Positions 1,384-31,000 of a DNA stretch of 56,916 nucleotides are shown here, in pieces; position 1 is the first letter of the stretch; each line of letters opens with the position of its first letter. The notes below the pieces were generated by a model that saw only the letters and a program-made list of their open reading frames with translations, did not search any database and was not told the origin of the DNA. This stretch comes from a virus (lineage: Duplodnaviria; Caudoviricetes). Location: IMG/VR virus record IMGVR_UViG_3300047553_000257, positions 1 through 56,916 of that record; one strand, 5' to 3'. Both the position numbers and the translations under genes were made by a program.

Positions 1384-1645
1384 AGGCTAAGTTGATGAGG
1401 GCGAGGCCCACTGTCACCGCTAACCAGATGAAACGCTCAGCCATCTTGATTGCACCAGATTGGTTAGTCGCTGACTTCTCCAGTGACCGCAGCCGCCCTT
1501 CGTGATCGTCGATGGCCTCCCTGTGACCGTGCAACCGTTCATCCACCCGCGACAGCAGCCGCAGCGCATCCGCTATGGATTTCATCTCTTCTTCGATCCG
1601 CCCAAGGCGGTGGTCAATGGCTGGCAAATCCACAATAGGTCTCAC
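1382..1645 (-). CDS. Coiled-coil protein with C-terminal TM helix (XhlA/holin-like)
   Basis: Heptad-rich N-terminus (RLGRIEEEMKSIADAL...HEGRLRSLE) followed by hydrophobic FIWLAVTVGLALINLA. Confidence 0.6.
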   Translation of the reverse strand: MRPIVDLPAIDHRLGRIEEEMKSIADALRLLSRVDERLHGHREAIDDHEGRLRSLEKSATNQSGAIKMAERFIWLAVTVGLALINLA

Positions 1646-1740
1646 TGGTTAATCACTACGATCTCCATATCATCGAGTGACGTTGTACGCGAGTGCAAAG
1701 AAAGTTTTATCGAAACTTTTTCAATACGTTATGGGCCATG

Positions 1741-1805
1741 AAGTAAAAAAACATAAAAAAATGTTTGGGGGTGGGTTGACACATCAAAATACCTTCGTCT
1801 ATTTA
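1741..1805 (+). promoter_or_regulatory. Probable strong early promoter with A-rich UP element
   Basis: TTGACA at 1776-1781, CTATTT/TATTTA at 17/18-nt spacing, A-tracts at 1741-1761; heads the early operon. Confidence 0.6.
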
Positions 1806-1838
1806 CTAGGTCGTCGGCAGCGACACAAAACACTGACC

Positions 1839-1855
1839 CGCTCTTTGACATTGTG
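1839..1855 (+). promoter_or_regulatory. boxA-like (Nus) antitermination element
   Basis: CGCTCTTTGACATTGTG, versus rrn boxA TGCTCTTTAACA and lambda nut boxA CGCTCTTA; about 30 nt after the predicted transcription start. Confidence 0.55.
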
Positions 1856-1947
1856 AAACGCTTGATACCTACGGGGGCTTCTGTCCCCGCTAGGATCATC
1901 ACACCGCAGTCCGCTGCCGTCTGGTGATTTTAGCAAGGAGAAAGTAC

Positions 1948-2169
1948 ATGAAAGACGTAAACATGATCATGGCAGTCGCCAACGCAATGGACGCTGCAGC
2001 AGACGGATATGCCGACGATGAAAAGGTCTTATTCGGCGGAGAGTTCTGGTTCGCTGGTCGGCTGCGGGAAGAGGCAGACGATCTGATCGACGCCAACATC
2101 GAGGAGTGGGCGGACGCTCAGATGGCAGAGATGGTCGAGGCCACTCGCGGCAAAGTCGTAAATTTCTGA
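1948..2169 (+). CDS. Small acidic hypothetical protein (first early gene)
   Basis: AAGGAG SD then ATG at 1948; D/E-rich 73 aa. Confidence 0.75.
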   Translation: MKDVNMIMAVANAMDAAADGYADDEKVLFGGEFWFAGRLREEADDLIDANIEEWADAQMAEMVEATRGKVVNF

Positions 2170-2215
2170 CTTCCCCAGACGGTGGGGTTCTGCTCCACCG
2201 CGAGGATGAATTCAG
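2166..2215 (+). ncRNA. Intergenic structured RNA motif (CC-AGA-C/G-CRA-GG family), copy R1
   Basis: Extended hairpin CTGA-C-TTC-C-CC-AGA-CGGTGG...CCACCG-CGA-GG-AT-GAA-T-TCAG from the stop codon to the next SD; repeated at 2407 and 4110. Confidence 0.65.
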
Positions 2216-2229
2216 CAAGGAGAAAAAAC

Positions 2230-2409
2230 ATGGCATATCTCAGCACCTACGCAGCCTTCGTTCGCTACGGCAACGATGAGCCAGAACAGCGCTGGACTGG
2301 CCTCACCAAGGGACAGGCCAAGTGGCGCTATCACTGGATAAAACGCAACTACTACAGCCGCTTTAGGAGCTTCCGCGAATATGGATGGGAGCGTGAGTGG
2401 CAAGCCTAA
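2230..2409 (+). CDS. Hypothetical protein
   Basis: AAGGAG SD; 59-aa aromatic/basic ORF. Confidence 0.7.
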   Translation: MAYLSTYAAFVRYGNDEPEQRWTGLTKGQAKWRYHWIKRNYYSRFRSFREYGWEREWQA

Positions 2410-2452
2410 CACCACCAGACGGCGGAGCAATCCGCCGCGAGGATGGCGCTAG
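2407..2452 (+). ncRNA. Intergenic structured RNA motif, copy R2
   Basis: CCA-CC-AGA-CGGCGGA-GCAA-TCCGCCG-CGA-GG-A-TGG; same internal loop as R1 with different stems and a GNRA tetraloop. Confidence 0.62.
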
Positions 2453-2475
2453 TGCCAAATACGAAAGGAATATTT

Positions 2476-2862
2476 ATGTCTTTGAATTGGAACGTATCGA
2501 ACATCGCGAACAGCGAAGAAGTCTGCTTCTTTCACTACACAGAGGAGGGTGAGCCTCAGCGCCGACTGACGCAGTCCACCGAAAACTTGATCTTCCTCAC
2601 GATGGTCGTTGGCTTGGGCCGGATCACCGAAAGCAACTACAAAGAGTTCTACAAGCGGATCGCGCTGTTCGAACGCCTTCGAGGTTGTGTGCGGGTCAAG
2701 CGGAGCGACAGCGGCAAGTTCGTTGATGATCCCTACACGCTCGAGGATATCCGCCAGCACATTGGCCTCACCGTTAACGTGTCGGACGAAAAGCCAGACG
2801 CATGGCGTAAACGGATTCTGAAGAGCTGGGAGCATGATCTGGTGACCGAGCGCCACCACTAA
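2476..2862 (+). CDS. Hypothetical protein
   Basis: AAAGGA SD, ATG at 2476, 128 aa. Confidence 0.75.
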   Translation: MSLNWNVSNIANSEEVCFFHYTEEGEPQRRLTQSTENLIFLTMVVGLGRITESNYKEFYKRIALFERLRGCVRVKRSDSGKFVDDPYTLEDIRQHIGLTVNVSDEKPDAWRKRILKSWEHDLVTERHH

Positions 2863-2922
2863 GTCGAAACCCCTTCGGGGGTCCGTTCCAGACTGACCGC
2901 TGGGCGCTGATGAGACAGGTCA
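2863..2922 (+). ncRNA. Type II hammerhead ribozyme HH1
   Basis: GTC-GAAA-CCCC(TTCG)GGGG-TC^ stem I CTGATGA-GAC; predicted cleavage after C2883; pseudoknot TGACC/GGTCA. Confidence 0.92.
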
Positions 2923-2937
2923 TTTAAGGAGACTGAC

Positions 2938-3342
2938 ATGAGAGAAGATCACCACACGTTCGAGCCGCACACTGAGAGCGCAGCAGATCACTTCTGCGAC
3001 CGCTGCTTCAGCTATCACGGCGGGTTTGAGGGCTGCGAAGAAGAAGAGGAAGAAGAAGAGATGATCAGCTTTGAGCAGGTCTCTGCCTCTCTCCCCCTTC
3101 GCGTCGAGGTAAACGGGGAAACCGTCCACAGGGTCACAGCTTGGAAGGTACCACGCGATGCCACTGAGGAGCAGGTGAAAGAGGCGATGCACTACTGGAT
3201 CGAAGCTGAATACTGCCAGCATGAGCATGATTGCTGTGGCTACTACTACGCCGGAACGCCGCAGCTTTTGGGTGGCCGCACCTACTGGGACAACGACACA
3301 GAGGTCGTTTTTGTCCTCCAAACCGACACACTGAACGTCTGA
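2938..3342 (+). CDS. Cys/His-rich hypothetical protein with poly-Glu linker
   Basis: AAGGAG SD; CDRC...H and CQHEHDCCG motifs. Confidence 0.7.
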   Translation: MREDHHTFEPHTESAADHFCDRCFSYHGGFEGCEEEEEEEEMISFEQVSASLPLRVEVNGETVHRVTAWKVPRDATEEQVKEAMHYWIEAEYCQHEHDCCGYYYAGTPQLLGGRTYWDNDTEVVFVLQTDTLNV

Positions 3343-3354
3343 AAGGTACAAAAC

Positions 3355-3522
3355 ATGGCAATCAATTACGGCGATCTTGAATGCAGCCCTTGGCACATCG
3401 CCAGACAGGAAGCTGCGGCAGAAGCTAGGTTCGAACGCTTGATCCGCGAAGACACTGAGCGCGAAGACAGGCTGCGCGAGTACGACATCTGGCAGCAAGA
3501 GATGCGCGACTTGGAAGACTGA
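3355..3522 (+). CDS. Small acidic hypothetical protein (55 aa, not in ORF track)
   Basis: AAAGG SD; MAINYGDLECSPWHIARQE...MRDLED; stop is 2 nt before HH2. Confidence 0.7.
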   Translation: MAINYGDLECSPWHIARQEAAAEARFERLIREDTEREDRLREYDIWQQEMRDLED

Positions 3523-3524
3523 TA

Positions 3525-3584
3525 GTCGAAACCCCTTCGGGGGTCTGGTTGGGACTGACCGCCCACCACTGATGAGACTGGTCA
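3525..3584 (+). ncRNA. Type II hammerhead ribozyme HH2
   Basis: Intact core (GAAA, GTC^ at 3545, CTGATGA at 3569-3575); stem I TGGT(T)GGG/CCCACCA; pseudoknot TGACC/GGTCA. Confidence 0.93.
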
Positions 3585-3597
3585 AATGGAGATCGAA

Positions 3598-3771
3598 ATG
3601 ATTGACGCAATAAAAACATTCTTTGCTGGCTTGGCCGTTCTGGTTGTTGCCAGCCTAATCATCGTCCAGCCCCGCTACATTGGCTATGGCTGCAAGAACG
3701 CAAATGTTCCGCTGCTCGCTAAGTACGAAAGCGACTTCCCCGCATGCTCGCGGATCGAACCAATTTTCTAA
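3598..3771 (+). CDS. Small membrane-anchored protein
   Basis: GGAG SD; N-terminal hydrophobic helix and two Cys. Confidence 0.65.
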   Translation: MIDAIKTFFAGLAVLVVASLIIVQPRYIGYGCKNANVPLLAKYESDFPACSRIEPIF

Positions 3772-3783
3772 GGGAGAGTACCA

Positions 3784-4113
3784 ATGACACAAGTTACCGA
3801 TCTTGACCGCTTCGCCACCAAGGGCGAGGCCGCAGTAGTGAAACGTCTAGTCCGCATCGTCCTCGAGCGCGGGTACATGGTCAGCATCAATGACGGCGAA
3901 GAGTGGACTGTTACCCTGAGCACTAACCGCAACGAAATCCTGTCCGCCCTCGCAACCACTGGCGAGGACATCCTCCGCCTTTACAAGGACGGCGAACGGG
4001 CTGGATCGCTCTGGCTGGTCTACGGCAATGCTGAGGACGGCAGCGAGCTGATCGCGGATCACAGTGACAACGATGCATGCCACAGCATCTGCTGGGAGCT
4101 GTACCCCGACTGA
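3784..4113 (+). CDS. Hypothetical phage protein
   Basis: GGGAG SD; 109 aa. Confidence 0.75.
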   Translation: MTQVTDLDRFATKGEAAVVKRLVRIVLERGYMVSINDGEEWTVTLSTNRNEILSALATTGEDILRLYKDGERAGSLWLVYGNAEDGSELIADHSDNDACHSICWELYPD

Positions 4114-4160
4114 CTTCCCCAGACTGCGGTTCTTCGGAGCCGCAGCAAGGACGAATTCAG
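4110..4160 (+). ncRNA. Intergenic structured RNA motif, copy R3
   Basis: CTGACTTCCCCAGAC-[TGCGGTTC(TTCG)GAGCCGCA]-GCAAGGACGAATTCAG; flanks nearly identical to R1, inner stem completely different. Confidence 0.65.
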
Positions 4161-4175
4161 CAAAGGAGAAAGTAA

Positions 4176-4370
4176 ATGGAACGATTTGAGGTTACTGCCC
4201 ACTACGCAACTTGGAGCGGCCACCACGCATCCTGTAGGCGCATCGTTGAGGCAGAAGATGCGGGACAGGCGCTCGACATCGTTGCTGGTCGGGTAAAGAG
4301 CTGGAAGCGGTACATGGGCAAGCTCGACTTGGACTGCATACAACTACGCGAAGGGAATGAAAATGACTGA
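4176..4370 (+). CDS. Hypothetical protein
   Basis: AAGGAG SD; 64 aa. Confidence 0.7.
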   Translation: MERFEVTAHYATWSGHHASCRRIVEAEDAGQALDIVAGRVKSWKRYMGKLDLDCIQLREGNEND

Positions 4371-4548
4371 AGAGAAACTGGATGACTACACCGCCGTCAT
4401 GATCGCTGAGGGCGTCGAAGATGCGGACTATGACCGCACCGTCGAAGCTTGGCAGTACCTGCATGACACTGGCCTTGCCTACCGCCTCCAAGGCTGGTTT
4501 GGCCGCACCGCACAGTCGCTGATCGATCAAGGGATCATTGGCGAATAG
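4357..4548 (+). CDS. Small phage protein (LQGWFGRTA motif)
   Basis: Coupled to the upstream ORF; stop TAG overlaps HH3. Confidence 0.75.
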   Translation: MKMTEEKLDDYTAVMIAEGVEDADYDRTVEAWQYLHDTGLAYRLQGWFGRTAQSLIDQGIIGE

Positions 4549-4607
4549 TCGAAACGCCTTCGGGCGTCTGCGAAGGGGTGGCCTCCCCGCACTGATGAGA
4601 CAGGCCA
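4548..4607 (+). ncRNA. Type II hammerhead ribozyme HH3
   Basis: Stem III covaried (CGCC-TTCG-GGCG); GTC^ at 4568; CTGATGA-GAC; pseudoknot TGGCCT/AGGCCA. Confidence 0.93.
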
Positions 4608-4624
4608 TGTAAGGAAAAAGAATA

Positions 4625-5002
4625 ATGAAGATCGTATCTATTACTTTTCAAGAAACAACCCGTTTCGTATCGAAGCCATACGCCTACCTCACCGACATCG
4701 ACGATATCAGTGTCGGCGATACCGTTGTCGTGGACTCTCCGCATAACGGCTTCGCATGCGTGAAGGTCGTCAGTATTGAGGAAAACGCTGAGCGGATCGA
4801 GAAGGCATACAAGTGGATCGTCTGCAGGGTCGATACGAAATCGTATGTCGAGCGTTTGGAGCGCGAAGAAAGGCGTCAGACCGTTATCGCTAAGCTCAAG
4901 AAGCTCGAACGGCACGTCCTCGAAGAAGATCGTTTCGCGATGCTGGCTAAGCACAGCCCAGAGGCATCTGCCCTACTCGAGGAGCTCAAGACGCTTAAGT
5001 AG
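4625..5002 (+). CDS. Hypothetical phage protein
   Basis: AAGGA SD; KPYAYLTD...VGDTVVV beta-rich N-terminus and helical C-terminus. Confidence 0.78.
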   Translation: MKIVSITFQETTRFVSKPYAYLTDIDDISVGDTVVVDSPHNGFACVKVVSIEENAERIEKAYKWIVCRVDTKSYVERLEREERRQTVIAKLKKLERHVLEEDRFAMLAKHSPEASALLEELKTLK

Positions 5003-5060
5003 TCGAAACCCCTTCGGGGGTCTGGCGAGGGTTGCCTCCCGCCACTGATGAGACAGGCAA
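5002..5060 (+). ncRNA. Type II hammerhead ribozyme HH4
   Basis: Intact core; GTC^ at 5022; stem I TGGCG(A)GG/CCCGCCA; pseudoknot TTGCCT/AGGCAA directly before the AGGAG SD. Confidence 0.93.
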
Positions 5061-5072
5061 AGGAGACTGAAA

Positions 5073-5369
5073 ATGAAAATTTCAACCGCACCTTGGCTTT
5101 TAGAGGTTAAGCCAACAAAGGACGGAACGAGCCTTCGGGTTATCGACCAAGACCACCGTGTCTTGGCTCTAATGAAGGGCAGCGGTCGGGAAAAGCTGGC
5201 TAACGCCTATCTGATGGCGGCTGCCCCCGAAATGCTCAAAGCGCTCGACCATGTACTGAGATTTAATCGGCGCAGTGAGGCATTAAATGAAAACGGCAAC
5301 CTGCACCCGTTTCTCATTAATGAGATCGATCAGGTAATCAACAAAGCAAAAGGGAAAGCCAATGACTGA
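5073..5369 (+). CDS. Hypothetical phage protein (ANAxLxAAAPEML motif)
   Basis: AGGAG SD; motif common in small phage early proteins. Confidence 0.75.
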   Translation: MKISTAPWLLEVKPTKDGTSLRVIDQDHRVLALMKGSGREKLANAYLMAAAPEMLKALDHVLRFNRRSEALNENGNLHPFLINEIDQVINKAKGKAND

Positions 5370-5615
5370 AGGACAACTACACCTAGCAATCCGCTGCGGC
5401 ATCTTCGCGATCATCGTGATCGCCGCCAACCTCTACGCATGACATGCAGTGGCGCGTGATCCTCATGGCGGATGGCAAGAGCGCTGTCCGCCACGTTAAA
5501 GCCATCAGTGCTGCACTCGCGAGATGGACAGCTATCAGCGATTACAAACTGGAAACCGGACTCGATGCCACTGTGGGACACATGGTGCGCACCAGCCGCT
5601 AATGTATTTATATGC

Positions 5616-5644
5616 TTGACGCATAAAACGAGCGTCATTAAGAG
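5616..5644 (+). promoter_or_regulatory. Putative promoter for ardC with overlapping inverted repeat
   Basis: TTGACG-N17-TAAGAG; TGACGC...GCGTCA palindrome. Confidence 0.45.
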
Positions 5645-5666
5645 CATTTATAGAAGGGAATCGATT

Positions 5667-6536
5667 ATGAAACAGGACGTTTACGAAACGGTCACCAACA
5701 AGGTGCTCGAGATGATGGAAACACATGGCGCGAACTGGATCAACCCGTTCGCTCGCAAGGGCAAGGCGCTTCTGCCGCACAACATCATCAGCAAGAAACC
5801 ATACCGTGGGATCAACCACCTCATGCTGCTCTGGTCGCCTTACGAAACGCCTGCTTGGGGAACCTTCAAGCAGTGGAACGATCAGGGCTGCTCAGTCCGT
5901 AAGGGCGAGAAGTCCACGCCAATCGTTTTCTGGCAGTTTATCGAGAAGGAAGACGACAAGGGGCAGAAGATCACTATTCCGTTCCTTCGTCAGTACCATG
6001 CATTCAACGTAGCTCAGGTGGAGGGTGATTTTGCTGAGCGTCTGTTGACCTGTACAGATACTGGTACAGGTGCAGAAGAGATCGCGGTGGCTGAGGATTT
6101 TTTCCGCCAAATCCCTGCGGAGGTACACCACACGTCCACTGGTCGTGCGTACTACAACCCCATGAAAGACTTCATCAGCATGCCAGCCAAGGACGTGTTC
6201 GAAGACACGCCGACAAGCAGCGCTACTGAATGCTACTACAGCACCCTGTCGCATGAGCTGACGCACTGGACTGGACACCCAGACCGTCTGGATCGTCTCG
6301 AGAAGTCTCGCTTCGGTGATGAGACCTATGCGCGTGAAGAGCTGGTCGCTGAGATCGGTGCTGCACTGCTTTGCGCTCACCTCGAGATCAGCGCGACCCC
6401 TCGCCCAGATCATGCCCAATACCTCAACGGCTGGATGAAGGCGCTGTCCGACCACAAGAAGGAATTCGTGTCAGCAGCGGCGGCTGCATCTAAGGCCGTC
6501 GATTTCGTTATTGAAGCAGCAGGAAAGGAAGCCTAA
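5667..6536 (+). CDS. ardC: ArdC-family antirestriction protein (ssDNA-binding domain plus zincin-like metallopeptidase)
   Basis: YETVTNKVL...W..PF, PYRGIN, WGTFKQW, VRKGEK, AYYNP..DFISMP, YYSTLSHELTHWTG..RLDR, YAREELVAEIGAA; likely start is ATG 5667. Confidence 0.92.
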   Translation: MKQDVYETVTNKVLEMMETHGANWINPFARKGKALLPHNIISKKPYRGINHLMLLWSPYETPAWGTFKQWNDQGCSVRKGEKSTPIVFWQFIEKEDDKGQKITIPFLRQYHAFNVAQVEGDFAERLLTCTDTGTGAEEIAVAEDFFRQIPAEVHHTSTGRAYYNPMKDFISMPAKDVFEDTPTSSATECYYSTLSHELTHWTGHPDRLDRLEKSRFGDETYAREELVAEIGAALLCAHLEISATPRPDHAQYLNGWMKALSDHKKEFVSAAAAASKAVDFVIEAAGKEA

Positions 6537-22080: not shown

Positions 22081-25000
22081 ACTTCTTCTCCGCCTCTTCG
22101 GCGAGGTTGTTGAACTCCGTCATGAGGGCTGTGATCTCGTCATCAAGCTTCTGCGTCTCTGACGGCTTGGCCCCTTCAAGGATCATCTTACGGCGCTCCC
22201 TGCGCAGGTCTGAGACGTCACGGTAGTAAGACCCCACGTAGTCGATCAGCTCAGCCTTCGGGTTCTCGTCAAAGACCTCTGTGGTGTCCTGACCATTCTC
22301 TTCCCTCAGCTTGACTGTATTCTTGAGCTCGTTGACGGCCTTGACGTTGTCGTAGAATTTGCCACCTTCCGCAGTCTTTCCACCAACTTCTCCGTAGAAG
22401 CGTCTCACGAAGGCTATGTCGTTGGGCTCTATTTGCTCACCCCTAACCCCCTTCTCGAGGGTTGCTGTACTGCGGTACAGGAATTGCATAGGCGGCAACG
22501 TCTGCTCTACGAAGAACTTGACCTCTTCTGGGGTTGGTGAAAAGCCACCGACTTCATACTCGTCACCGCCAGTGACTGCGTTGATGACTTCAGCAGCCTT
22601 GCTGTACATGGCGTACATGACGGTCGTGTCACCTCGAGCGCGGCTCATGCCGGTGGTCGGGTTAAGGTCGTTGAAGTCCTTGTTATAGATACGACGACCC
22701 AGACCATCCTCGTTCTGCGTGTACTGGACGAACATGTCGAAGACTGATGGTGAGACAAACTCAATGAACCCAGCCCCGTAGGCAATTGGATTAACGGAGT
22801 TGATCATCACCTCTGCGGTGCCACCAATAAACTGTCCAGCCGTAAGCTGCCCCCTAGCCGCCTCGACCATGCGCCGCCCAATGGCTGGGAACATGTTGTA
22901 GAAGTACGGCATTGGGATAGGGACATACTTATTGGTGTCGGCAAACAAGCCTAGAGGAATGATGAAGGCGTGATCCTTCACCCACTCTGGTACATCGTCC
23001 TCATCATAGCCAGCGGCAGCAAGGACAAGACCTTGGATGACGCCCAGTCCAACGCCGCCAATCAAGATCTTCTTACCAGCCTTACCTAGCATGGTCTTAA
23101 TGTTACGGTCGGTCGATGCGATAGAAGCGTTGGAAAAGCCATACAGAGAATTGATCTCGCGTGTCCACTGGCCCTTCTGGTTGAAGTTCACCGTAATGTT
23201 CTTCGCGATCTCCGCTGCCTGCGCATCTGTCATTCCCTTGTCGACAGCTATCTTGAACGTGGCAAGGCGTGTGGCATTCTCCAGTGCGTCATTCCACGCC
23301 GTCACATAATCAACGACGACCTTGGGAGCACTTGTCTTTCCTGCAGACAATTGCTTGACTGCCTTCTGCAACTCCGCTTCCAGTTTTTCTGGGTCGCGGT
23401 CAAAGTTCTTAAAGAACGACTCTCTAATAGCTGTGCGTCCACCAGCCTTTTCGAATCTGTCGAATAGGTCAGCAACTTCCTGAGATCCAGCAGGCACAGG
23501 CTCACCACTGTCAGTGGCGCGGATGACCCGAACCAACTTCTTTGCGTACAAAGGAGCCTTCGTCATGACTTTGAACTGCTCACCGTCCAGCGGTGTGCTA
23601 GTTAGGTTAACCATCGCGCCCCATATGTCGCGTGCGAAGTTGACCGGTCCAAACTCTGGCATGTACTGGGTACGCAACTGCGACCACAGGCGCGTAATTC
23701 TTCCGACATTATCAATAAACGCGGCAGAGGCACCTTCGAGTGTTGGCAGATCGTCGTTCTTTAAGACGGTCGCGATGTCTACTGCCATCTTCTCGTCAGG
23801 ATTAAAGACGATGAACTTGTCCGTTCCGTCAACGCGAGTAGCGAAGACGTTCGGCTGACGCTTGAAGTTGGTGTCGGCGATTGTGTCTACGTTGCCAGTG
23901 CGTTTGTTGTATGCCCTCTTCGTCGGTGACTTGAAGATGTCGTCAGCAAGATCCGGATCCATGCCCATCGCAGCCAATTGCTTACGCACCTGATCAGGCG
24001 TAGCCGTCGAAGGATCGATGACCATCCAGAAGGCTTGATCCCCGTTTTCCAACGCAGCCTGAAACACTGTGTTGCCAAGACGGTTTGCCTCAGCGCGGTT
24101 AATAGCCGCTTCACGCTGCGTAACGATGTTGGCGATAATGCTGCTAACCGGTTTGCTTGAGCCGACAGCCGCCTTCAGTGCCGATCCCTCGACGCTTGCG
24201 CCACGAGTGCCAAGCGCATGACCACCGTCAACGCCTTCGCGGAACAGAGGGACGTAGAACTTATAAGCGTTACGCAAGTTACGGATCGTCTCTGCCGACT
24301 CTATGCCAGAGTCCTGCAGAACCTGCAGCGTTCCGTTTGTTATGACGTCCAGCTTCTTGGCTACCGCTTCAAGGCGGTTGCGCTTAGCAGGAGACAGTGC
24401 GGACAGATACGCTTTTGCAGCAGCATCATTGATGCCAGATCCACCATCTGGGAATGCGTCGTTACGCTCGCGGATGATGGCGTTGCGCTCTACCGCATGC
24501 CTGTTGTGCATGTAAGTTTCGACTTCATTGATCGACAGCGCTTGTTTGCCGATCTCCTTCAGCACTGGCTTAAGCTCATTGAGGTGGAACTCTTGCGTCG
24601 TATATGCGGCGCGACTACCCATCAACTGCTCAGCGCGGTCGATGTTTGTCTTGTCGTTATAGAAGTCGTCGATGTTCTTGGTGAGCTGCTTGAGAGAGCG
24701 CGTCCTGTTGACGAGCCTCTCGTACCAGTTAACCAGCCTTGGGTATTTTGCAGCCATTGGATCCACGCCAAGAACGGATGGACCGGTCTTGAACTTTGGT
24801 GCGTTTGGACGCAGAGCCTGTGGCCCAGTCTGGCGACCACCCCTTCCGCGACGGCCAGAATAGCTAATGCGCGGATCTTCTGGATCGAAGTTACCGTTAT
24901 TGCTCTCTGCGGATTTTATCTGCGTTGACTTAAACGCAACATACTCGGTTCCTATTCCAACTTGCTCTGGAAGGTTTCGAATGATTACTCCGTCGTGACC

Positions 25001-28000
25001 CTTTTTCTTGGCCTCCGCTATCAGCTTGTCCTTGGCTGCGTTGTCGTGCTCCCACCCACCATAGCCGTCTTTAACCATAACCCTCTTCGCGTCGACCGAC
25101 ATAGGGTTTTCGATTTTCAAAAAGACTTTGTATAGGGTTCCGTCACGAGCGTAACCGGTGAAGGCTCGCGCAATTTGCTCACTGTCGGAAAACGAGAAAC
25201 CATCCTGCGTACCCCAAGGTGCGGTATCAAAGACCTCAAAGGGACCGTCGGTTTCCTCATCGACCATTTCGGTTCCATGAAACACAACCAATGGGCGACC
25301 CTTAGCATCGACTACTTTGCTATTGCCAAACCACTTTTTGAATGACGGGCTATCGACGGTTCTGCCACGACGACCAGAGAAGCGCACATCCCCATCATCC
25401 ATCATCTCGCGAATACGGCCAGCGTTCGCATAGTTGAATGGAATCGCCTCAGATAGGACGGCATTAGTGTCGCCGCTGTTGTACTGATCACTGCGACCGC
25501 CACGTTGTGGGGCAAGCGTGAAGTTGTTCAGGTCTTCAAGCTGACCGCCTCGTCCATCCTGACGCCGCAGAATAACCGGAACCTGCTCAATGCCAGCGGC
25601 TTTGAATGCAGCCATGCGGTGACGGCCTTCATGACCCATGACTCGTCGAGGCTGCTCCTTGCCGGAAGCCATATATGGGTCTGCGATCTCGAGGAATAGT
25701 GGCTGGTCTACTCGACGTAGCTCATCAACATTCAATGGGCGAGCGCGAGTCTTCTCTGGATCCATTGTTGCAAGAAGATCACGCCCTTTGTTCGAAAGGG
25801 TGAGCCCCAAGAACTGATCCGGAGACATGAAGGTGATCCAAGCCTTTGTCTTGTTATCGTCATCAGGATAGGACAGATCCTGCAGCAGTAGGTCGGTGCG
25901 CTCTGGCGTGTAGACCGCACGACCGGTGCGACCAGAGTACTGGACGTTACCGGCTTTACCCGATTGAGCTGCTACAGCGTCATTGTACTGGTCGAAGTAC
26001 TCGCCCTCGCCCTTCGTATAGAAGTCGCTGCGTGCGGGATCGTGGTACATGAAGACAACATCTGGCTCGCCGTTATTGAAGGCGGAGAACTCAGTCTTGT
26101 CCCAGATTTTTGGTGCCTGTTCATTGTCCCACTTCATCCTCGCCGCGACTTTGAAGCCAGCCGTTGAGTACAAATAAGGGAGGACGGTGTCGTATGCGTC
26201 CAACCGGCGAGCGCCCAGCCACACCGCCATACGTGCGAGAGGGATAGCGACACCCCTAGTTTCTGACGATGGGTGCTTGAACACCGACACAAGATCGTCG
26301 CCCTTGAGGGCAAATCCAGTGAGCCCGTCCTCAGTGAGGAACAGGCGCATGTCGGCGTAATCTTTCTTGTCGTAGACGTAGACTGCAGCGCCAGCCTTAT
26401 TGGCCTTCTGCGCTTCAGAGATCAGTCGATGGTACAGCTTGGCCGAAGCTGGGCCGGTGGTCAGCTCGAGGAACTTGGGAGCATCAACACCTGCTACAGC
26501 AAGTGCGTTCTTTACCTTTACTGAGTGGCTGTATGTAGCGACTACAGGTGTGCGGCCCTCTAAGCTCCGCGCAAGGTTTCCGCCAGCTTTTCGGCTGACA
26601 TGTTCGGATGGTCTTCCAGAAGTTGCTGACCCAGCGCCATCAAGAATGGGGAACTCTTTATTGAGTCTGGTAATGACTGAATCTTGGATGAAGCGTCTGG
26701 CGTCTCTGGGCGCGAATTCATTAGCGGCCCCAGATTGTCTGTTAGCGTTTTGATTGACGGCTTTTCCGCCCAGAACGCTTCCTGATCCTTGTCCCCGTCC
26801 CCCCTTGGGTTGAACGGCGGTACTGATTTGCTCATCGGTAAATCCTCGCTTCTTAGCAATGCGAACGAACTCGTCGTAGTAGCTGGTTTCGCCAGCGCTA
26901 CCCGCATCGTCTGCGCCTTTGCCCTTTTCCCGTACACCAAACTTCTTAGACCACAACCGCTTTTCTGGATACCAGAGTATGGCCTGAAGATCGGCATTAG
27001 TAATGTTAATGCCATCGCCTTGCAAGATCTGTTGCGACTTAGCAACAATATCACGTATCCAAGTGCGCTGCCAATCAGCCTTCGGTGCGTCCTTTGTGTC
27101 TTCAAAGCTAGCAAGAAGACGCTGTGCAGCCAGCGCCGTCTCTGGCTTAACCTTCTCTCCGCTGTCGTAGGCGGCGCGGTTAACCTTAAAGTCTTTCTCG
27201 AAAGCCTTGGACTCAGCCTGCGCAACCTCAAGCAGCTCTGCTCCATATGCGTTTGTTGGACGACCGTCATCTGCCAGCGCTTTAGTAAGGCGCTCTTCCT
27301 GCTGCTGGATAAGCTCAGGATCTGCACCAATAAGGTCGCCAGTCATGCGGCCCCACGTCCGCATAAACCACATGTCGATTGTTACGGGATCGTAGCGACC
27401 ATTGAGGTTTGAGTAGAAGCCAAAGCCAATCTTTGGACCAAGCACTGCACTGCCGTAGACCATCTCTTCAGATGCGCCAGACACATTTCTAAAGCCAGCG
27501 GCACGCAGCTCGCGGACTGTGAACTTGGTGGCAAAGAACTTCGAGACCGCCTCAGCGCCATACTTTTCAACGATTGAGTTGAAGAGTTTCGCGTTGGAAA
27601 TAATCGAGGATGCGGCCTTGCCCCAACCTTCGTTTTCAGGAAACTTACCATTCTTCTTATAGTGCTCGTACCAGCGCTCAGCAAACACAGCGTTGGCATC
27701 GACAGATTGATTCTGCGAAGTAATAGCAAGAGCTGCAGTAAAGTGCAGTTGAGCACCTACATCAGTAGCGATCTCAGGGTGGATCATAGATGCGACAGCA
27801 GTAGCCTTGCGCATCTCCTCTGTGTACCAGCCAGAAGCGTTGCGCTTGCCGGAACGTGCCAGCTCAGACTTCACCTCATGGGCTACGGTCTGTGCAAGAA
27901 GGTCATCCTTTTGACCGGCTGCAGTGATGGGCCTGCCAAGAATAGAAAGCGTGCGCTTCTGGATTTCCATGGCCGCTTCGGTGACACCCATCGTTCCTTG

Positions 28001-31000
28001 CTTAACGTCTGGCTGAGCAAATAGCTCGTCAGCGGAAAGCTTAGATGCTTTGATGTTCTTCTTGAACTCGCCCGTGGCGCTATCTTTCTTCCGACCAGAG
28101 TACTGGACACCGCTATCCTGCTCCGCAAGCGGCGCAGGCTCAGTAAATCCTTTAGATGTCTCGCCGGTACGGAAGCCTTCAAAGATATCAGCAACAGAAT
28201 CAACGCGATTTGCGCGGAAGATATTGCGGAAGCCACGAAGCATATCGCTGACAAAGTCGACGAAGCGGATGAAGCTAGCCTTCATGCCCTTCATGTCAAC
28301 GCCGCGATCCTTGGCATCTACGAGAGCGCCAAATGCCACAGCCTGCGCCTCAAAGCCAGACAGTGGGGTATCACCGAAGCTGTTGATAAGGCTGTCGTAT
28401 ACGCTGCCCTCACCATCCGTATCCAAGGTCTTCAGTTTACGGATAATGCTTGGGTCAAGATCCTTGATCCGCATGCCGTCGTAGAATGATGAATTGATAG
28501 TCTTGTAGAGATCTGGAGCGTCGACGCGAAGGAAGTCTTGAATGACGTGGAACGCTTCATGCGCCGCATTCTCTCGAGCAACTTCCGTAAGCTTATCGCT
28601 AAGCGACAACGTGATCAGACCACGAAAGCCGTTCTGACTTAAGCTGTAGGCGCGATATGCTCCGCTGGCTTCTGCACCCAGATCAATACCGCTGGCTGCT
28701 GCCGCACCGGCATCAGTTGCTGTGATTGATGGAACAAAGAGAACGTCAACCTTTGAATTGCTAGGCAATACACGAGACACGACCTCGCCCATCTGGAACG
28801 CATAGTAGAGCTGTGTTGGGTTGTAGTCGTTCTTCTTCAGCAGAGAGCGTAGGCGGTTGGCAACAATCCTGCCTTGACCACCACGAGCGGCAATCTTGTC
28901 GAGACGGTCTTGGATAACTGCCTCGTAATCAATCTCAGGTTTTGCTTCAGTTTCAGGAGCTGCCTTAGCGTCCTTCGTCAGCGGTGTATCGCGGACAACG
29001 TCGCTAGCTTTCTTTGCCTTGGGGCGGACAACGTCGCGACGGCCAGAGTATTGAGTACCACCATCACCGCGCTTGGTATTGAGCTGACTGATAAGCTCTG
29101 GCCCAATATCCTCAGCCCCCATGTCCTTGTCTTTGGACATGCGCTTGATCTCAGCAAGATCTGCGTCGTCGATCAGACCCTCTTTATGAACCTTATTGGC
29201 GTAGCGAACGACGCCATTGCGGTCATCGTTAAGAATCTTGTCCTCGATATTCTCGACGTGCTTTTCAACCTTGCGACCAGCATCTTGAGTAGGAGATTCA
29301 GCCTCCGCCTCTTCTTGAGCCGGAGCTGGTGCCTCTTCCTTAGCTTCTGGAGCTGGAGCCTCTTCCTTAGCTGGAGCTGGCAAAGCATTCTGGGCAGGCG
29401 CTTGGATCTGGGCGGGTGCGCCGCTGATCTCGTTCGGCGCCTCTACATTGCCCTCTACGTTTGGCGCAGGCTCTTGCTGTGGGTTTGCCTGTGCGTTCTG
29501 CGTCACCGGCATTTGGTCTGTATTGTCTTCAAAGCCAGTCATACGTGTAGGCGAGATCGTGGCAGGCAAGCCGCTCTCAGTCGGTACTAAAGCTCGCGTG
29601 CTGGTGCGGTCTACTGACTGACGTGGGTTCAGGTCGGTACCCGTCCCCTTACGTGGTTTACGCACGTCGCCAGCGAGCTCCTGCGTCATGCGTGCTGTGC
29701 CACGAACGACACGATCAAACATTGCAGTTGGGTCTACGTCCTCTGAGATGATCACGGGTGCGCCGTTGCCATCTAGTTCTGTGGGAGACTCGTATTGAAT
29801 GCGGACCTTGCCGCCTTCTGCGCCGACAATCGTTGCAGCAATGCCGCCAAGATCTTCGCCATAGACTGCTGGGTTGAGGAAGAACTGGGCCTCTGGCTCT
29901 GGAGCACCGGCACGCAGATCTTCGCGCTGTGTGAGCTCGCCTGTGGCTGTGTCAAACCGGCGTTGACGCACATCTGCCAAGCGGAAAGCTTGCTGTGCTT
30001 CGCGCTCACGCTGAGCTTCGTTTGTCACATCCTCTTGCGACATGATGACGCTGCCTTCGCCGCCACGTTCTGGGCGTGCGAATAGAGTGCCGGTCTGTGC
30101 GGTCGGCTGGTAATTGCTGACGGCGTTACGCAAGCCGCTGACGAACTGCTTGCCAGTCGACTCTAGCGACTGAGCTATGGCTGAAAGAGTTGGGCTCTCA
30201 GCAATGATTTCAGGACTGATCTTTGAAAGCTCGTCGGCAATCATCTGCTTAGAATTGCTGACGGAATTTGTGCCGCCAAACATTCCAGAGATACGGCGAA
30301 CGGCTTCAGGCTCGACTCGAGCAACCTCTTCCTGATTAAGGATGCGAGCAACCTGCTGGACCTTCGCCACGTCGCTCACTGGTTGCGACATGATGTCGGC
30401 AATGCGTGGGTTCGACTCGTTGTTACGAGCAATATCAAGGATCTGCGCAGGCGTGTAATTCATACCGCCAGCGGAGATGTTGCCCATACCGCGAAGCGCT
30501 ACAGCATTCTGGTCTTCAAGTAGACCGCCACCCTCGCGAACAGGGTTAGCCTCCCCTCGAGCAGCAAGTGCTGTGGCGAGCTCTTCGTCTTCCATTGCAT
30601 TGGGTTGGCTAGCAGTGTCTTTGCGAATGTACTCCGCGCCTGTACCAACCGTCGCTTCGATAGCGCCCGTCGGTAACTCACCAGCAAATTCAGCAACGAT
30701 ATCCTGTGGGCTAGTAATGCGACCTTCCGACAACAACTGGGCGGAGGCTTCACCACCGGCACCAAGAGCGCCTTGGCTTACAGTTTCAGCAGCACCACCA
30801 GCAAGCACTGCTCCTGCACGTCTACCGGCACTTGCTTCTGCGATATCACCGCCGACGCGCCGCGCAATCTGACTACCACCAAGCTTACCGGCTAATCCGA
30901 CAGAGAGCGCGTCGAATGCAGCGACAGCAATACCACGACGAAGACCGCGCTCCTTAGCCTCTTCCATAATCTTTGGATCATCTATAGCTGCCTTAAGGGC

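What the first reader, a model, noticed from the sequence alone, without database searches (positions are those of the whole stretch)
2166..4160. Unnamed RNA motif in the same niche as the hammerheads: candidate new ribozyme or processing signal
Seen: three copies (2166-2215, 2407-2452, 4110-4160) share CC-AGA-C-[stem-loop]-G-C(G/A)A-GG-A(T/C). The inner stems differ completely yet still pair (CGGTGG/CCACCG; CGGCGGA-GCAA-TCCGCCG; CTGCGGTTC-TTCG-GAGCCGCAG), and the outer stem also varies (TTC/GAA versus CCA/TGG). Structure and internal-loop nucleotides are therefore conserved while stem sequence is not. Each sits stop-to-SD, interleaved with the hammerheads. It does not match hammerhead, twister, twister-sister, pistol, hatchet, HDV or hairpin consensus as I recall them. 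Established: several ribozyme classes were discovered through this kind of genetic-context association. Inference: a functional equivalent of the hammerheads, such as a self-cleaving RNA, an RNase III site or a protein-binding element.
Basis: partly seen in the sequence, partly recalled or inferred. Interest (0 to 1): 0.85.

Follow-up and report, generated by a model that had tools for sequence, protein, structure and literature searches.

The report
Conserved intercistronic RNA hairpin in phages
Three gaps between early genes of this phage hold the same folded RNA hairpin with a fixed pair of internal loops; related phages put it exactly where others put a self-cutting hammerhead RNA, so it is probably an uncatalogued signal for cutting or insulating the long early messenger RNA.

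Summary
Three copies (2166-2215, 2406-2452, 4110-4160, + strand) match one pattern, against 0.12 expected by chance.

A covariance model and three collection scans extended the family to 80 matches (79 distinct) in 50 loci. 96.4% of pair cells are paired, all 16 modelled pairs show compensatory changes, and 0 of 500 shuffles reach the observed score.

Consensus: CUGA-y-nYC-m-CC-RGA-S[perfect 6-11 bp hairpin, any loop]S-CGA-GG-AU-GRn-n-YCAG. The loop letters stay fixed when the search pattern leaves them free.

The upstream gene's stop codon sits inside CUGA in 38 of 48 copies. A start codon follows within about 40 nt in 47 of 48.

No Rfam 15 family matches.

At orthologous gene junctions in related phages the hairpin and type II hammerheads replace each other.

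Mechanism is unresolved. My estimates:
- Cut by a host double-strand RNase (T7-like RNase III site): about 0.33.
- New self-cleaving ribozyme: about 0.25.
- Uncut protein-binding or stabilising hairpin: about 0.27.

No RNA-end data could be obtained.

The parts
2166..2215 (+). Motif copy 1 (type A). CUGA holds the stop codon 2167-2169 of ORF 1948-2169. The inner hairpin GGTGGGGTT-CTG-CTCCACC has 9 bp. SD and ATG 2230 follow.
   Evidence: (78.1 bits)
2406..2452 (+). Motif copy 2 (type B, outer stem CUAA-C-ACC.../...GGCG-CUAG). The stop TAA 2407-2409 of ORF 2230-2409 lies inside it. The inner hairpin has 7 bp and a GCAA loop. ATG 2476 follows.
   Evidence: (68.7 bits). In one search this unit, about 2404-2458, has high contig depth with loose ends on both sides.
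4110..4160 (+). Motif copy 3 (type A). The stop 4111-4113 of ORF 3784-4113 lies inside CUGA. The inner hairpin has 9 bp and a UUCG loop. This copy has CAA for CGA and AC for AU. ATG 4176 follows.
   Evidence: (74.0 bits)
2862..2924 (+). Type II hammerhead between ORF 2476-2862 and ORF 2938-3342 (same niche).
   Evidence: RF02276, 31.5 bits, below the gathering score of 37, E 0.0013
3524..3586 (+). Type II hammerhead after ORF 3355-3522.
   Evidence: RF02276, 29.2 bits, below gathering, E 0.0049
4547..4609 (+). Type II hammerhead after ORF 4357-4548.
   Evidence: RF02276, 43.8 bits
5001..5062 (+). Type II hammerhead after ORF 4625-5002.
   Evidence: RF02276, 47.3 bits
1948..5369 (+). Early operon of small same-strand ORFs that carries all seven elements. 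No promoter-like or terminator-like site coincides with any motif copy.
   Evidence: The ArdC-like gene follows at 5667-6533.

Best explanation
The element is a real structured RNA, uncatalogued as far as I could check, on the sense strand of phage early polycistronic mRNA. It fills the gap from the stop codon of one small gene to the ribosome-binding site of the next. It is an irregular hairpin of 20-25 rungs. The lower stem is CUGA...YCAG plus a covarying 3-bp block. A 1x2 loop (m / AU) follows, then two C-G pairs, then a 3x3 loop (RGA / CGA). On top sits a perfect GC-rich stem of 6-11 bp whose sequence and loop are free. Shown: the structure is under selection, the loop letters are fixed, the position relative to stop and start is fixed, and related phages use it or a type II hammerhead at the same gene junction. 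Inferred: it therefore does what the hammerhead does, which is to cut the long early transcript into separate messages. The cut would most likely lie on the 3' side of the conserved loops, so the upstream message keeps a protective 3' hairpin and the downstream message starts just before its ribosome-binding site. My committed guess for the cutting agent is a host double-strand-specific endoribonuclease of the RNase III kind, as at the five processing signals of the phage T7 early transcript. I put 'it is a cleavage site of some kind' at about 0.58 and 'the agent is a host RNase III-type enzyme' at about 0.33. The confidence given here is for the latter, full statement.
For: Real and structured: 80 matches (79 distinct) in 50 loci. 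96.4% of 1252 pair cells are paired, 16 of 16 pairs show changes on both sides, 0 of 500 shuffles reach the score, and sliding the partners drops pairing to 28-48%. The smaller first set gave the same result.

Sense-strand RNA: 47 G-U cells would be A-C mismatches on the other strand. Stable RNA tetraloops (GCAA, GCGA, GAAA, UUCG, UACG, UCCG) cap many inner stems.

Loop letters fixed without being forced: a scan left both 3-nt loops free. Among its 46 distinct hits with an inner stem of 5 bp or more, the loops were AGA/CGA 26, GGA/CGA 17, AGA/CGC 2 and CAA/AAC 1. The 19 hits without a stem had unrelated letters.

Fixed niche: the motif's UGA/UAA closes an open frame of 50 or more codons in 38 of 48 copies, and 2 more are cut by a locus end. 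A start with an ORF of 30 or more codons follows in 47 of 48.

Interchange with hammerheads:
- Upstream of gene family 0: the motif in 6 loci, a hammerhead in 3.
- Upstream of family 7: a hammerhead in 3, the motif in 2.
- Upstream of family 2: a hammerhead in 6, the motif in 1.
- Downstream of family 0: usually a hammerhead, the motif in L048.
Hammerheads in that script were called by a core regex. Rfam confirms those of the window, L008, L010, L012 and L073 in part.

RNase III-like geometry: 11 lower rungs, 3 loop rungs and 6-11 upper base pairs give 20-25. Nicholson's review gives 22 bp as the ideal substrate and about 20 bp or less for many cellular ones. It says internal loops give single-strand cuts that leave stabilising 3' hairpins, and that E. 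coli RNase III cuts five signals in the T7 polycistronic early RNA (PMC3867540, passages).

Inner stems are never shorter than 6 bp and never mismatched in 32 of 32 distinct hairpins. The same phages' hammerheads make do with 4-bp stems (alignments).

No protein family is shared by the motif-bearing loci, which points to a host factor or to none. The largest cluster is in 19 of 131 loci, and this is a weak test.
Against: No RNA end was seen. The four runs laid were assembled contigs, and the one true RNA run covered only pieces inside genes.

All helices beside the conserved loops are G-C or C-G. For E. coli RNase III, GC/CG pairs at proximal-box positions 2 and 4 inhibit binding or cleavage, and AU pairs are preferred (PMC1540722, abstract and passages). 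The rules may differ in other hosts.

About 13 near-invariant unpaired or loop-flanking letters, kept across phages of 52-79% G+C, are more typical of a ribozyme core or a specific protein site than of RNase III substrates.

Upper stems of 6-7 bp are too short to hold a full proximal-plus-distal box set.

Outside the window's clade the motif mostly occurs without hammerheads, so the equivalence argument rests on one lineage.
Confidence: 0.33

Rival explanations
1. A new class of small self-cleaving ribozyme. The block of conserved letters around the two internal loops forms the active site. The variable hairpin and lower stem only hold it together.
For: The motif takes exactly the place of a self-cleaving ribozyme at orthologous junctions. 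Genetic association of this kind is how twister-sister, pistol and hatchet were found (recalled: Weinberg et al. 2015, not read here). Size (47-70 nt) and the number of near-invariant letters resemble known small ribozymes: C13 C14 R15 G16 A17 / C63 G64 A65 G66 G67 A68 U69 G70. The stems covary freely. No shared phage protein was found, and the G+C range is wide, which fits independence from the host. [quoted passage not shown]
Against: I found no junction, pseudoknot or loop-loop contact. Terminal loops are free and flanks are unconserved, whereas every established natural self-cleaving class has such tertiary structure (established knowledge). The inner stems are long (6-11 bp, GC-rich, never mismatched), which a ribozyme would not need. 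There is no match to any Rfam ribozyme model. No biochemical or RNA-end evidence exists.
Confidence: 0.25
2. An uncut regulatory or protective hairpin. It would be a specific binding site for a host or phage RNA-binding protein or for the ribosome, or a barrier to exonucleases and RNase E. It would insulate neighbouring cistrons or couple termination to re-initiation without being cleaved.
For: Fixed loop letters with an invariant possibly bulged A17 and A68 are typical of protein operators (inference). The hairpin starts at the stop codon and ends just before the ribosome-binding site, which would bring stop and start together in space. A GAGG-AUG string is near-invariant in the 3' arm: AUG is intact in 45 of the 48 copies of the first set, and by column A68 is 79/79, U69 74/79 and G70 77/79. 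The window encodes a weak ProQ-C-like protein next to the elements: 4625-4999, E 0.0072, below the family cut-off.
Against: Replacing a hammerhead, whose only known activity is cutting, is harder to explain. No candidate protein is shared among loci. The motif's AUG is in frame and open to the next gene in only 20 of 44 cases. A mere exonuclease barrier needs no conserved loops.
Confidence: 0.27
3. A DNA-level element. It would be a recombination hotspot or cassette boundary, comparable to integron attC hairpins or the PeSL cassettes of T4-type phages, kept because it lets small early genes be shuffled.
For: Relatives differ by whole-gene insertions and deletions whose joints lie in the repeated SD segment next to the motif or in hammerheads: 1940>2224, 2225>4361/4362, 2861>3524 and 4173>4361. 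Gene order differs between loci. The layout (conserved lower stem with unpaired letters, variable top, one per promoterless cassette) resembles attC (recalled). PeSL papers were seen in the search listing only.
Against: G-U pairs and RNA tetraloops point to RNA. The strand is always that of the flanking genes. Hammerheads, which are RNA devices, fill the same slots. The attC R-box consensus is absent from the sequence. No promoter-like site lies in the motif. Homologous recombination at any conserved repeat would give the same joints as a by-product.
Confidence: 0.05

Closest known systems
RNase III processing signals of the phage T7 early polycistronic mRNA
   Same: Both are irregular hairpins of about two helical turns with an internal loop, placed between cistrons of an early phage transcript. 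In T7 a single cut leaves a stabilising 3' hairpin (PMC3867540, passages). The motif has 20-25 rungs and the same placement.
   Different: There is no sequence relation. The motif's helices next to the loops are all G-C, which is unfavourable by the E. coli rules (PMC1540722). Its loop letters are conserved far more strictly and across many unrelated contigs. Cleavage is untested.
Tandem type II hammerhead ribozymes in phage and prophage polycistronic RNAs (Rfam RF02276; Perreault et al. 2011)
   Same: The niche is the same: stop codon at the 5' edge, ribosome-binding site at the 3' edge, several per operon, near anti-restriction genes. PMC3088659 (passages) describes tandem hammerheads flanking ardA that cleave in vitro and in vivo. 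Here they are interchangeable at orthologous junctions.
   Different: The motif has no CUGANGA/GAAA core, no three-way junction and no Rfam match. It is a single hairpin.
PeSL mobile regulatory cassettes of T4-type phages
   Same: Both are repeated intergenic stem-loop units that flank small variable early genes and mark the borders of gene shuffling (search listing only; joints).
   Different: PeSLs combine an early promoter with a terminator-like stem-loop. This motif has neither a promoter-like nor a terminator-like site, and it has conserved internal loops.
Integron attC sites
   Same: Both are imperfect hairpins with a conserved lower part, unpaired letters and a variable top, one after each promoterless cassette (recalled).
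   Different: The attC R-box consensus is not in the sequence. No integrase was looked for or seen. RNA-type evidence (G-U pairs, tetraloops) argues against a DNA hairpin.
Small internal-loop ribozyme elements (VS ribozyme substrate stem-loop; minimal two-helix self-cleavers of a 2026 preprint)
   Same: Both have a purine-rich symmetric internal loop between two helices. The VS substrate loop is recalled as a similar 3x3 purine-rich loop with the same 3'-strand letters. The preprint describes 28-29 nt two-helix self-cleavers (passages).
   Different: VS needs a large separate catalytic domain that is not present here. The preprint's classes are from human and other genomes, and no sequence comparison was possible.

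Membership tests
Hammerhead ribozyme (all permutations) | Conserved CUGANGA and GAAA cores around a three-stem junction | tested here: not met
   cmscan at E<=10 over 1700-5800 gives hammerhead hits only at the four known sites and none over the motif copies. The motif has two coaxial helices and no third stem. The permuted forms read about in PMC10085705 keep the same three blocks, which are absent here.
Twister, twister-sister, pistol, hatchet, hairpin, HDV-like ribozymes and other Rfam 15 families | Match to the family covariance model | tested here: not met
   No match at the gathering score in the whole window. No match at E<=10 in 1700-5800 apart from 4 hammerheads and 3 chance hits elsewhere.
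Bacterial RNase III processing signal | Double-helical hairpin of about 20-22 bp, often with an internal loop at the cut site | tested here: met
   11 lower rungs + 3 + 6-11 upper bp = 20-25. Criteria are from PMC3867540.
Bacterial RNase III processing signal | Proximal/distal box base-pair preferences (E. coli: AU-rich proximal box, GC/CG antideterminants) | tested here: not met
   Pairs flanking both loops are C-G or G-C in 77-79 of 79 sequences. Rules are from PMC1540722. They may not apply to other hosts.
Bacterial RNase III processing signal | Cleavage by RNase III in vitro or in vivo | not testable with these tools
   The only runs available were assembled contigs, which give no RNA ends.
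Kink-turn / box C/D-like element (CUGA plus GAUGA) | Tandem sheared G-A pairs with invariant A next to a 3-nt bulge | tested here: not met
   The would-be invariant A (column 71) is G in 27 of 79, always with the compensating U-to-C change at column 10 (UA 52, CG 27, 0 unpaired). So it is a Watson-Crick pair.
Intrinsic terminator | GC-rich hairpin followed by a U run | tested here: not met
   The terminator scan of 1600-5800 finds 2 sites, neither at a motif copy. The hairpin is followed by a ribosome-binding site.
Integron attC | R and L boxes with the conserved R-box core, used by an adjacent integron integrase | tested here: inconclusive
   The R-box core (recalled) is not in the consensus. 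I did not search for an integrase. G-U pairs argue for RNA.
New self-cleaving ribozyme class | Site-specific self-scission without protein | not testable with these tools
   This needs in vitro transcription. Nothing here bears on it directly.

The most novel reading that the evidence does not exclude
The hairpin is a new class of small self-cleaving ribozyme, built from one hairpin with two adjacent conserved internal loops. Phages would use it interchangeably with type II hammerheads to cut early polycistronic mRNA at the stop-to-start gap.
Probability: 0.25. Interest if true: 0.9.

Novelty: new variant of a known kind. Interest (0 to 1): 0.68.

Why it matters
Why phages place hammerheads between early genes is still unexplained. 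A second, unrelated RNA in exactly the same slot, swapping with the hammerhead at orthologous junctions, suggests that the function is needed at the slot itself and not tied to the hammerhead fold. It also gives a simple test system of three natural copies and seven elements in one 3.4-kb operon. If the motif cuts itself, it would be a new and unusually simple natural ribozyme class. If host RNase III cuts it, it shows that ribozymes and enzyme sites are exchangeable modules in phage mRNA design, and it supplies a compact insulator part. Either way, the alignment of 79 distinct sequences is ready to become a family model.

Tried and rejected
- **Known family.** Rfam 15 at the gathering score over the whole window and at E<=10 over 1700-5800 gave nothing on the motif.
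- **Literature.** Four full-text searches found no description of such a motif. Candidate lists of the RAGATH and HRIMA studies are in supplements that were closed, so an unnamed earlier sighting cannot be excluded.
- **K-turn / box C/D reading of CUGA plus GAUGA.** Rejected by the 10-71 covariation.
- **Alternative pairing of the 5' CYUC with GAGG.** Rejected because column 65 is A while column 10 varies.
- **Upstream reading or start codon.** The motif AUG is in frame and open in 20 of 44, in frame with a stop in 3, and out of frame in 21. Inner hairpin lengths cover all three frame classes, so stop-codon read-through fusions are not general.
- **Virion-RNA-polymerase hairpin promoter.** I first took the 3256-aa ORF for an N4-type polymerase. 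It is a polyvalent protein with ART-PolyVal and LPD38 domains, and the motif's loops vary from 3 to 16 nt.
- **Terminator or promoter.** Not supported.
- **RNA ends from public runs.** One search listed 24 runs, with RNA runs holding only 0.08-0.11 of the words. All four runs laid were contigs, table 6 was empty, and the true RNA run covered only pieces inside genes. This says nothing for or against cleavage.
- **Shared partner protein.** All-against-all BLAST of ORFs from 131 loci found no family in more than 19 loci. The locus set was defined by a loose regex and includes chance pattern hits and duplicate contigs, so the test is weak.
- **Flanking genes of distant copies.** They are diverse: pentapeptide repeats in 2 of 10, DUF7666 in 1, a DNA pol III beta-like domain in 1 and 6 without a family. 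In PHROGs 1 of 10 matched a family of unknown function.
- **More distant relatives.** The ArdC-like gene's more distant relatives (L011, L013-L020) have neither the motif nor hammerheads.
- **Limnohabitans phage DC33.** The blastn hit H1 covered only part of one gene and led nowhere.
- **Bacterial genomes.** A strict AGA-only pattern found 1 stretch, in Sphingomonas laterariae. Its genome holds one copy.
- **Metagenome collection.** A strict pattern found 56 stretches. I did not analyse these loci further.
Full report
**What is in the window**

The window is a complete 56,916-base virus record. After a promoter-like region its left end carries one + strand operon of small ORFs, about 1948-5369. 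An ArdC-like anti-restriction gene follows at 5667-6533 (ArdcN plus MPTase-PolyVal). Only two of the ten small ORFs searched match a Pfam family: DUF7417, and a weak ProQ-C-like hit below the family cut-off.

Seven intercistronic gaps hold a structured element. Four hold type II hammerheads. Those at 4547-4609 and 5001-5062 are above Rfam's gathering score. Those at 2862-2924 and 3524-3586 are below it. The other three gaps hold the motif in question.

**Checking the observation**

The pattern CCAGAC-N8-34-GCRAGGA occurs three times, all on the + strand at the reported places. 0.12 hits are expected by chance, and 0 of 100 shuffles give three. In motif coordinates the copies run 2166-2215, 2406-2452 and 4110-4160.

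Each copy folds into one long irregular hairpin. The energies are only 1.2-2.4 sd better than shuffles, so energy alone would not carry the claim. The inner stems are unrelated in sequence and all pair. The stop codon of the upstream ORF (TGA, TAA, TGA) lies at the same place in the 5' base of the hairpin. The ribosome-binding site and ATG follow the 3' base.

**Extending the family**

The ArdC-like protein fetched 17 related viral loci. I built a covariance model, R1, from nine distinct copies. It found 26 strong matches (E <= 6e-12) in the window and its closer relatives, all on the gene strand. It found none in the more distant loci L011 and L013-L020.

These matches included variants my first pattern could not have found: the closing pair flipped from C-G to G-C, and GGA in place of AGA.

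A collection scan with a looser pattern gave 102 stretches, of which 80 loci were listed. 51 of the model hits in them had E <= 2e-5, many in contigs with 60-75% G+C that share nothing else obvious with the window.

To test whether the loop letters were conserved or merely imposed by my pattern, I scanned again with both 3-nt loops left as N. I then counted every distinct match to that pattern in all loci held at that point.
- Of the 65 distinct matches, 46 had an inner stem of at least 5 bp. Their loops were AGA/CGA 26, GGA/CGA 17, AGA/CGC 2 and CAA/AAC 1.
- The 19 matches without a stem had unrelated letters.
So the loops are truly fixed as RGA / CG(A>C).

A final model search over 50 sources gave 80 matches, 79 of them distinct.

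A strict pattern found 56 stretches in the metagenome collection. An AGA-only strict pattern found a single stretch in one genome per bacterial species, in Sphingomonas laterariae. The family is therefore modest in size and essentially viral.

**Anatomy**

From, in alignment columns, the motif runs from base to tip as follows:
- C4 U5 G6 A7 pair with Y74 C75 A77 G78.
- A usually mismatched position follows (y8 / n73).
- Three covarying pairs come next: 9-72, 10-71 and 11-70. Pair 10-71 is UA in 52 and CG in 27 of 79, with no exception.
- A 1x2 loop follows: m12 (C 49, A 30) opposite A68 (79/79) and U69 (74/79).
- Then come two pairs, C13-G67 (78/79, once U-A) and C14-G66 (77/79, twice G-C).
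- A 3x3 loop follows: R15 (A 50, G 28), G16 (78/79) and A17 (79/79) opposite C63 (78/79), G64 (77/79) and A65 (74/79).
- The closing pair is C-G (55) or G-C (23).
- On top is a perfect stem of 6-11 bp in 32 of 32 distinct inner hairpins of the first set. It is capped by GNRA or UNCG tetraloops, triloops, or longer, often C-rich loops.

Overall, 96.4% of 1252 pair cells are standard pairs. All 16 modelled pairs show changes on both sides. 0 of 500 column shuffles reach the observed covariation score, and sliding the 3' partners by 1-3 columns drops pairing to 28-48%. The alignment was fitted to the model, which favours the structure somewhat. Even so, the inner stems were never constrained by any search pattern.

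47 G-U cells and the RNA-type tetraloops indicate that the sense-strand RNA is the functional form, not DNA or the antisense strand.

**Niche**

In the first set of 48 distinct copies, the motif's UGA/UAA closes an open frame of at least 50 codons in 38 copies. Two more copies are cut by the end of the locus. In most of the other eight, a stop lies a few bases upstream. A start with an ORF of at least 30 codons follows in 47 of 48.

The element is thus a precise stop-to-start spacer. The hammerheads here are placed the same way, with their 5' end overlapping the stop codon.

**Interchange with hammerheads**

I mapped motifs, hammerheads (by a core regex) and ORF families in nine related regions.

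| Junction | Motif | Hammerhead |
|---|---|---|
| Upstream of family 0 (window ORF 2476-2862) | window, L012, L008, L009, L004, L048 | L010, L045, L086 |
| Upstream of family 7 (ORF 2938-3342) | L010, L086 | window, L008, L045 |
| Upstream of family 2 | L048 | six loci |
| Downstream of family 0 | L048 | the other loci |

Rfam confirms hammerheads in the window and in L008, L010, L012 and L073 (the same contig sequence as L086). Those of L045, and one each in L010 and L048, rest on the regex alone.

This is the strongest functional clue: selection accepts either element in the same slot. It holds for one clade only. In 35 further locus entries with the motif that I scanned, Rfam found hammerheads only in L073 (which belongs to that clade) and L110. 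It also found a DUF3800-VII RNA in L134.

**What it most likely does**

[quoted passage not shown] An element that substitutes for them is most simply another way of cutting, or at least separating, the cistrons.

Phage T7 does this with five host RNase III signals in its early transcript. Internal loops in such signals give a single-strand cut that leaves a stabilising 3' hairpin (PMC3867540, passages). The motif's 20-25 rungs, its constant lower half, its obligatory long perfect upper stem and its placement fit that picture. A cut on the 3' side of the loops would leave the hairpin on the upstream message and a short leader on the downstream one. These steps are inference.

Three things count against RNase III:
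- The pairs beside the loops are all G-C, which the E. coli enzyme disfavours (PMC1540722).
- The shortest upper stems cannot hold a full box set.
- The strict conservation of about 13 letters across phages of very different G+C looks more like a catalytic core or a specific protein site.

**Rival readings**

A self-cleaving ribozyme remains a serious rival, at about 0.25. The niche logic is the one that has found ribozymes before. [quoted passage not shown] Against it, I found no sign of tertiary contacts, and the stems are longer than a ribozyme needs.

An uncut protein-binding or stabilising hairpin (about 0.27) and a DNA-level recombination site (about 0.05) are the other rivals. Contigs from relatives do show gene-cassette insertions and deletions with joints in the repeated ribosome-binding segment and in hammerheads. 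Any conserved repeat would cause that, so it is probably a by-product.

**Direct evidence sought and not obtained**

The runs that hold this sequence are kept as assembled contigs. The one true RNA run covers only pieces inside genes, and no table of molecule ends was produced. This is neither for nor against cleavage.

**Comparison and novelty**

The motif is not a member of any Rfam 15 family. My four text searches found no description. Supplementary candidate lists (RAGATH, HRIMA) could not be opened. In kind it belongs with intercistronic mRNA processing and insulating elements (T7 RNase III signals, phage hammerheads). It has its own conserved core, so I rate it a new variant of a known kind. 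It would be categorically new if it proves self-cleaving.

**Verdict**

The element is a well-defined, testable candidate that merits a bench assay. Interest 0.68.

Noticed in passing
window 2862-2924 and 3524-3586: Two of the four type II hammerheads score below Rfam's gathering threshold (31.5 and 29.2 versus 37 bits) because stem I is irregular. They would be missed by standard annotation.
   Followed up: partly
window 1883-1936 (and the same place in 7 related loci): A conserved hairpin lies in the 5' leader of the first early gene (inner stem GCAG-UCCG-CUGC). The model gives it a weak hit on the opposite strand (18.6 bits). It is followed by the same AGCAAGGAGAAAGTA ribosome-binding segment as the type A motif copies.
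   Followed up: no
window 1940/2224, 2225/4361-4362, 2861/3524, 4173/4361: Contigs from relatives join these points, that is, whole small genes are inserted or deleted. The borders lie in the repeated ribosome-binding segment or in hammerheads. Gene order also differs among related loci.
   Followed up: partly
window 22082-31849 (-): A 3256-aa ORF is a 'polyvalent' protein with an ADP-ribosyltransferase domain (ART-PolyVal) and LPD38, not a virion RNA polymerase.
   Followed up: partly
L134 4029-4115 (-): Rfam DUF3800-VII RNA (59.7 bits) lies on the same strand as two motif copies about 1.2-2 kb away. It is another orphan structured RNA in the same kind of operon.
   Followed up: no
motif columns 64-71 (window 2202-2209, 2439-2446, 4147-4154): The 3' arm reads GAGG-AUG-R in nearly all copies, a ribosome-binding-like string abutting an AUG. 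The AUG is in frame and open to the next gene in 20 of 44 cases, slightly above one third but not consistent.
   Followed up: yes
L071, L077, L081/L042, L084, L091, L094, L036, L113, L123 inner hairpins: The longer inner hairpins (9-11 bp) tend to carry C-rich apical loops (CCCC or CCCCC). The short ones carry GNRA or UNCG tetraloops. A partner for the C-rich loops was not looked for.
   Followed up: no
L165 1108-3109 (-): Five motif copies lie within 2 kb of one contig, four of them with AC instead of AU in the small loop. This is an array without any Rfam hammerhead.
   Followed up: no
L154 5731-5791 (-) and L143 2156-2216 (-): Two matches lie on the strand opposite to the other copy in their locus. 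They carry G14-C66, a compensatory flip of the otherwise invariant C-G pair. Their gene context was not checked.
   Followed up: no
window 1776-1805: By eye, TTGACA-18 nt-TATTTA lies upstream of the operon. It does not pass the promoter scan's rule for the last base. A similar TTGAC box stands before the operon in L011.
   Followed up: no
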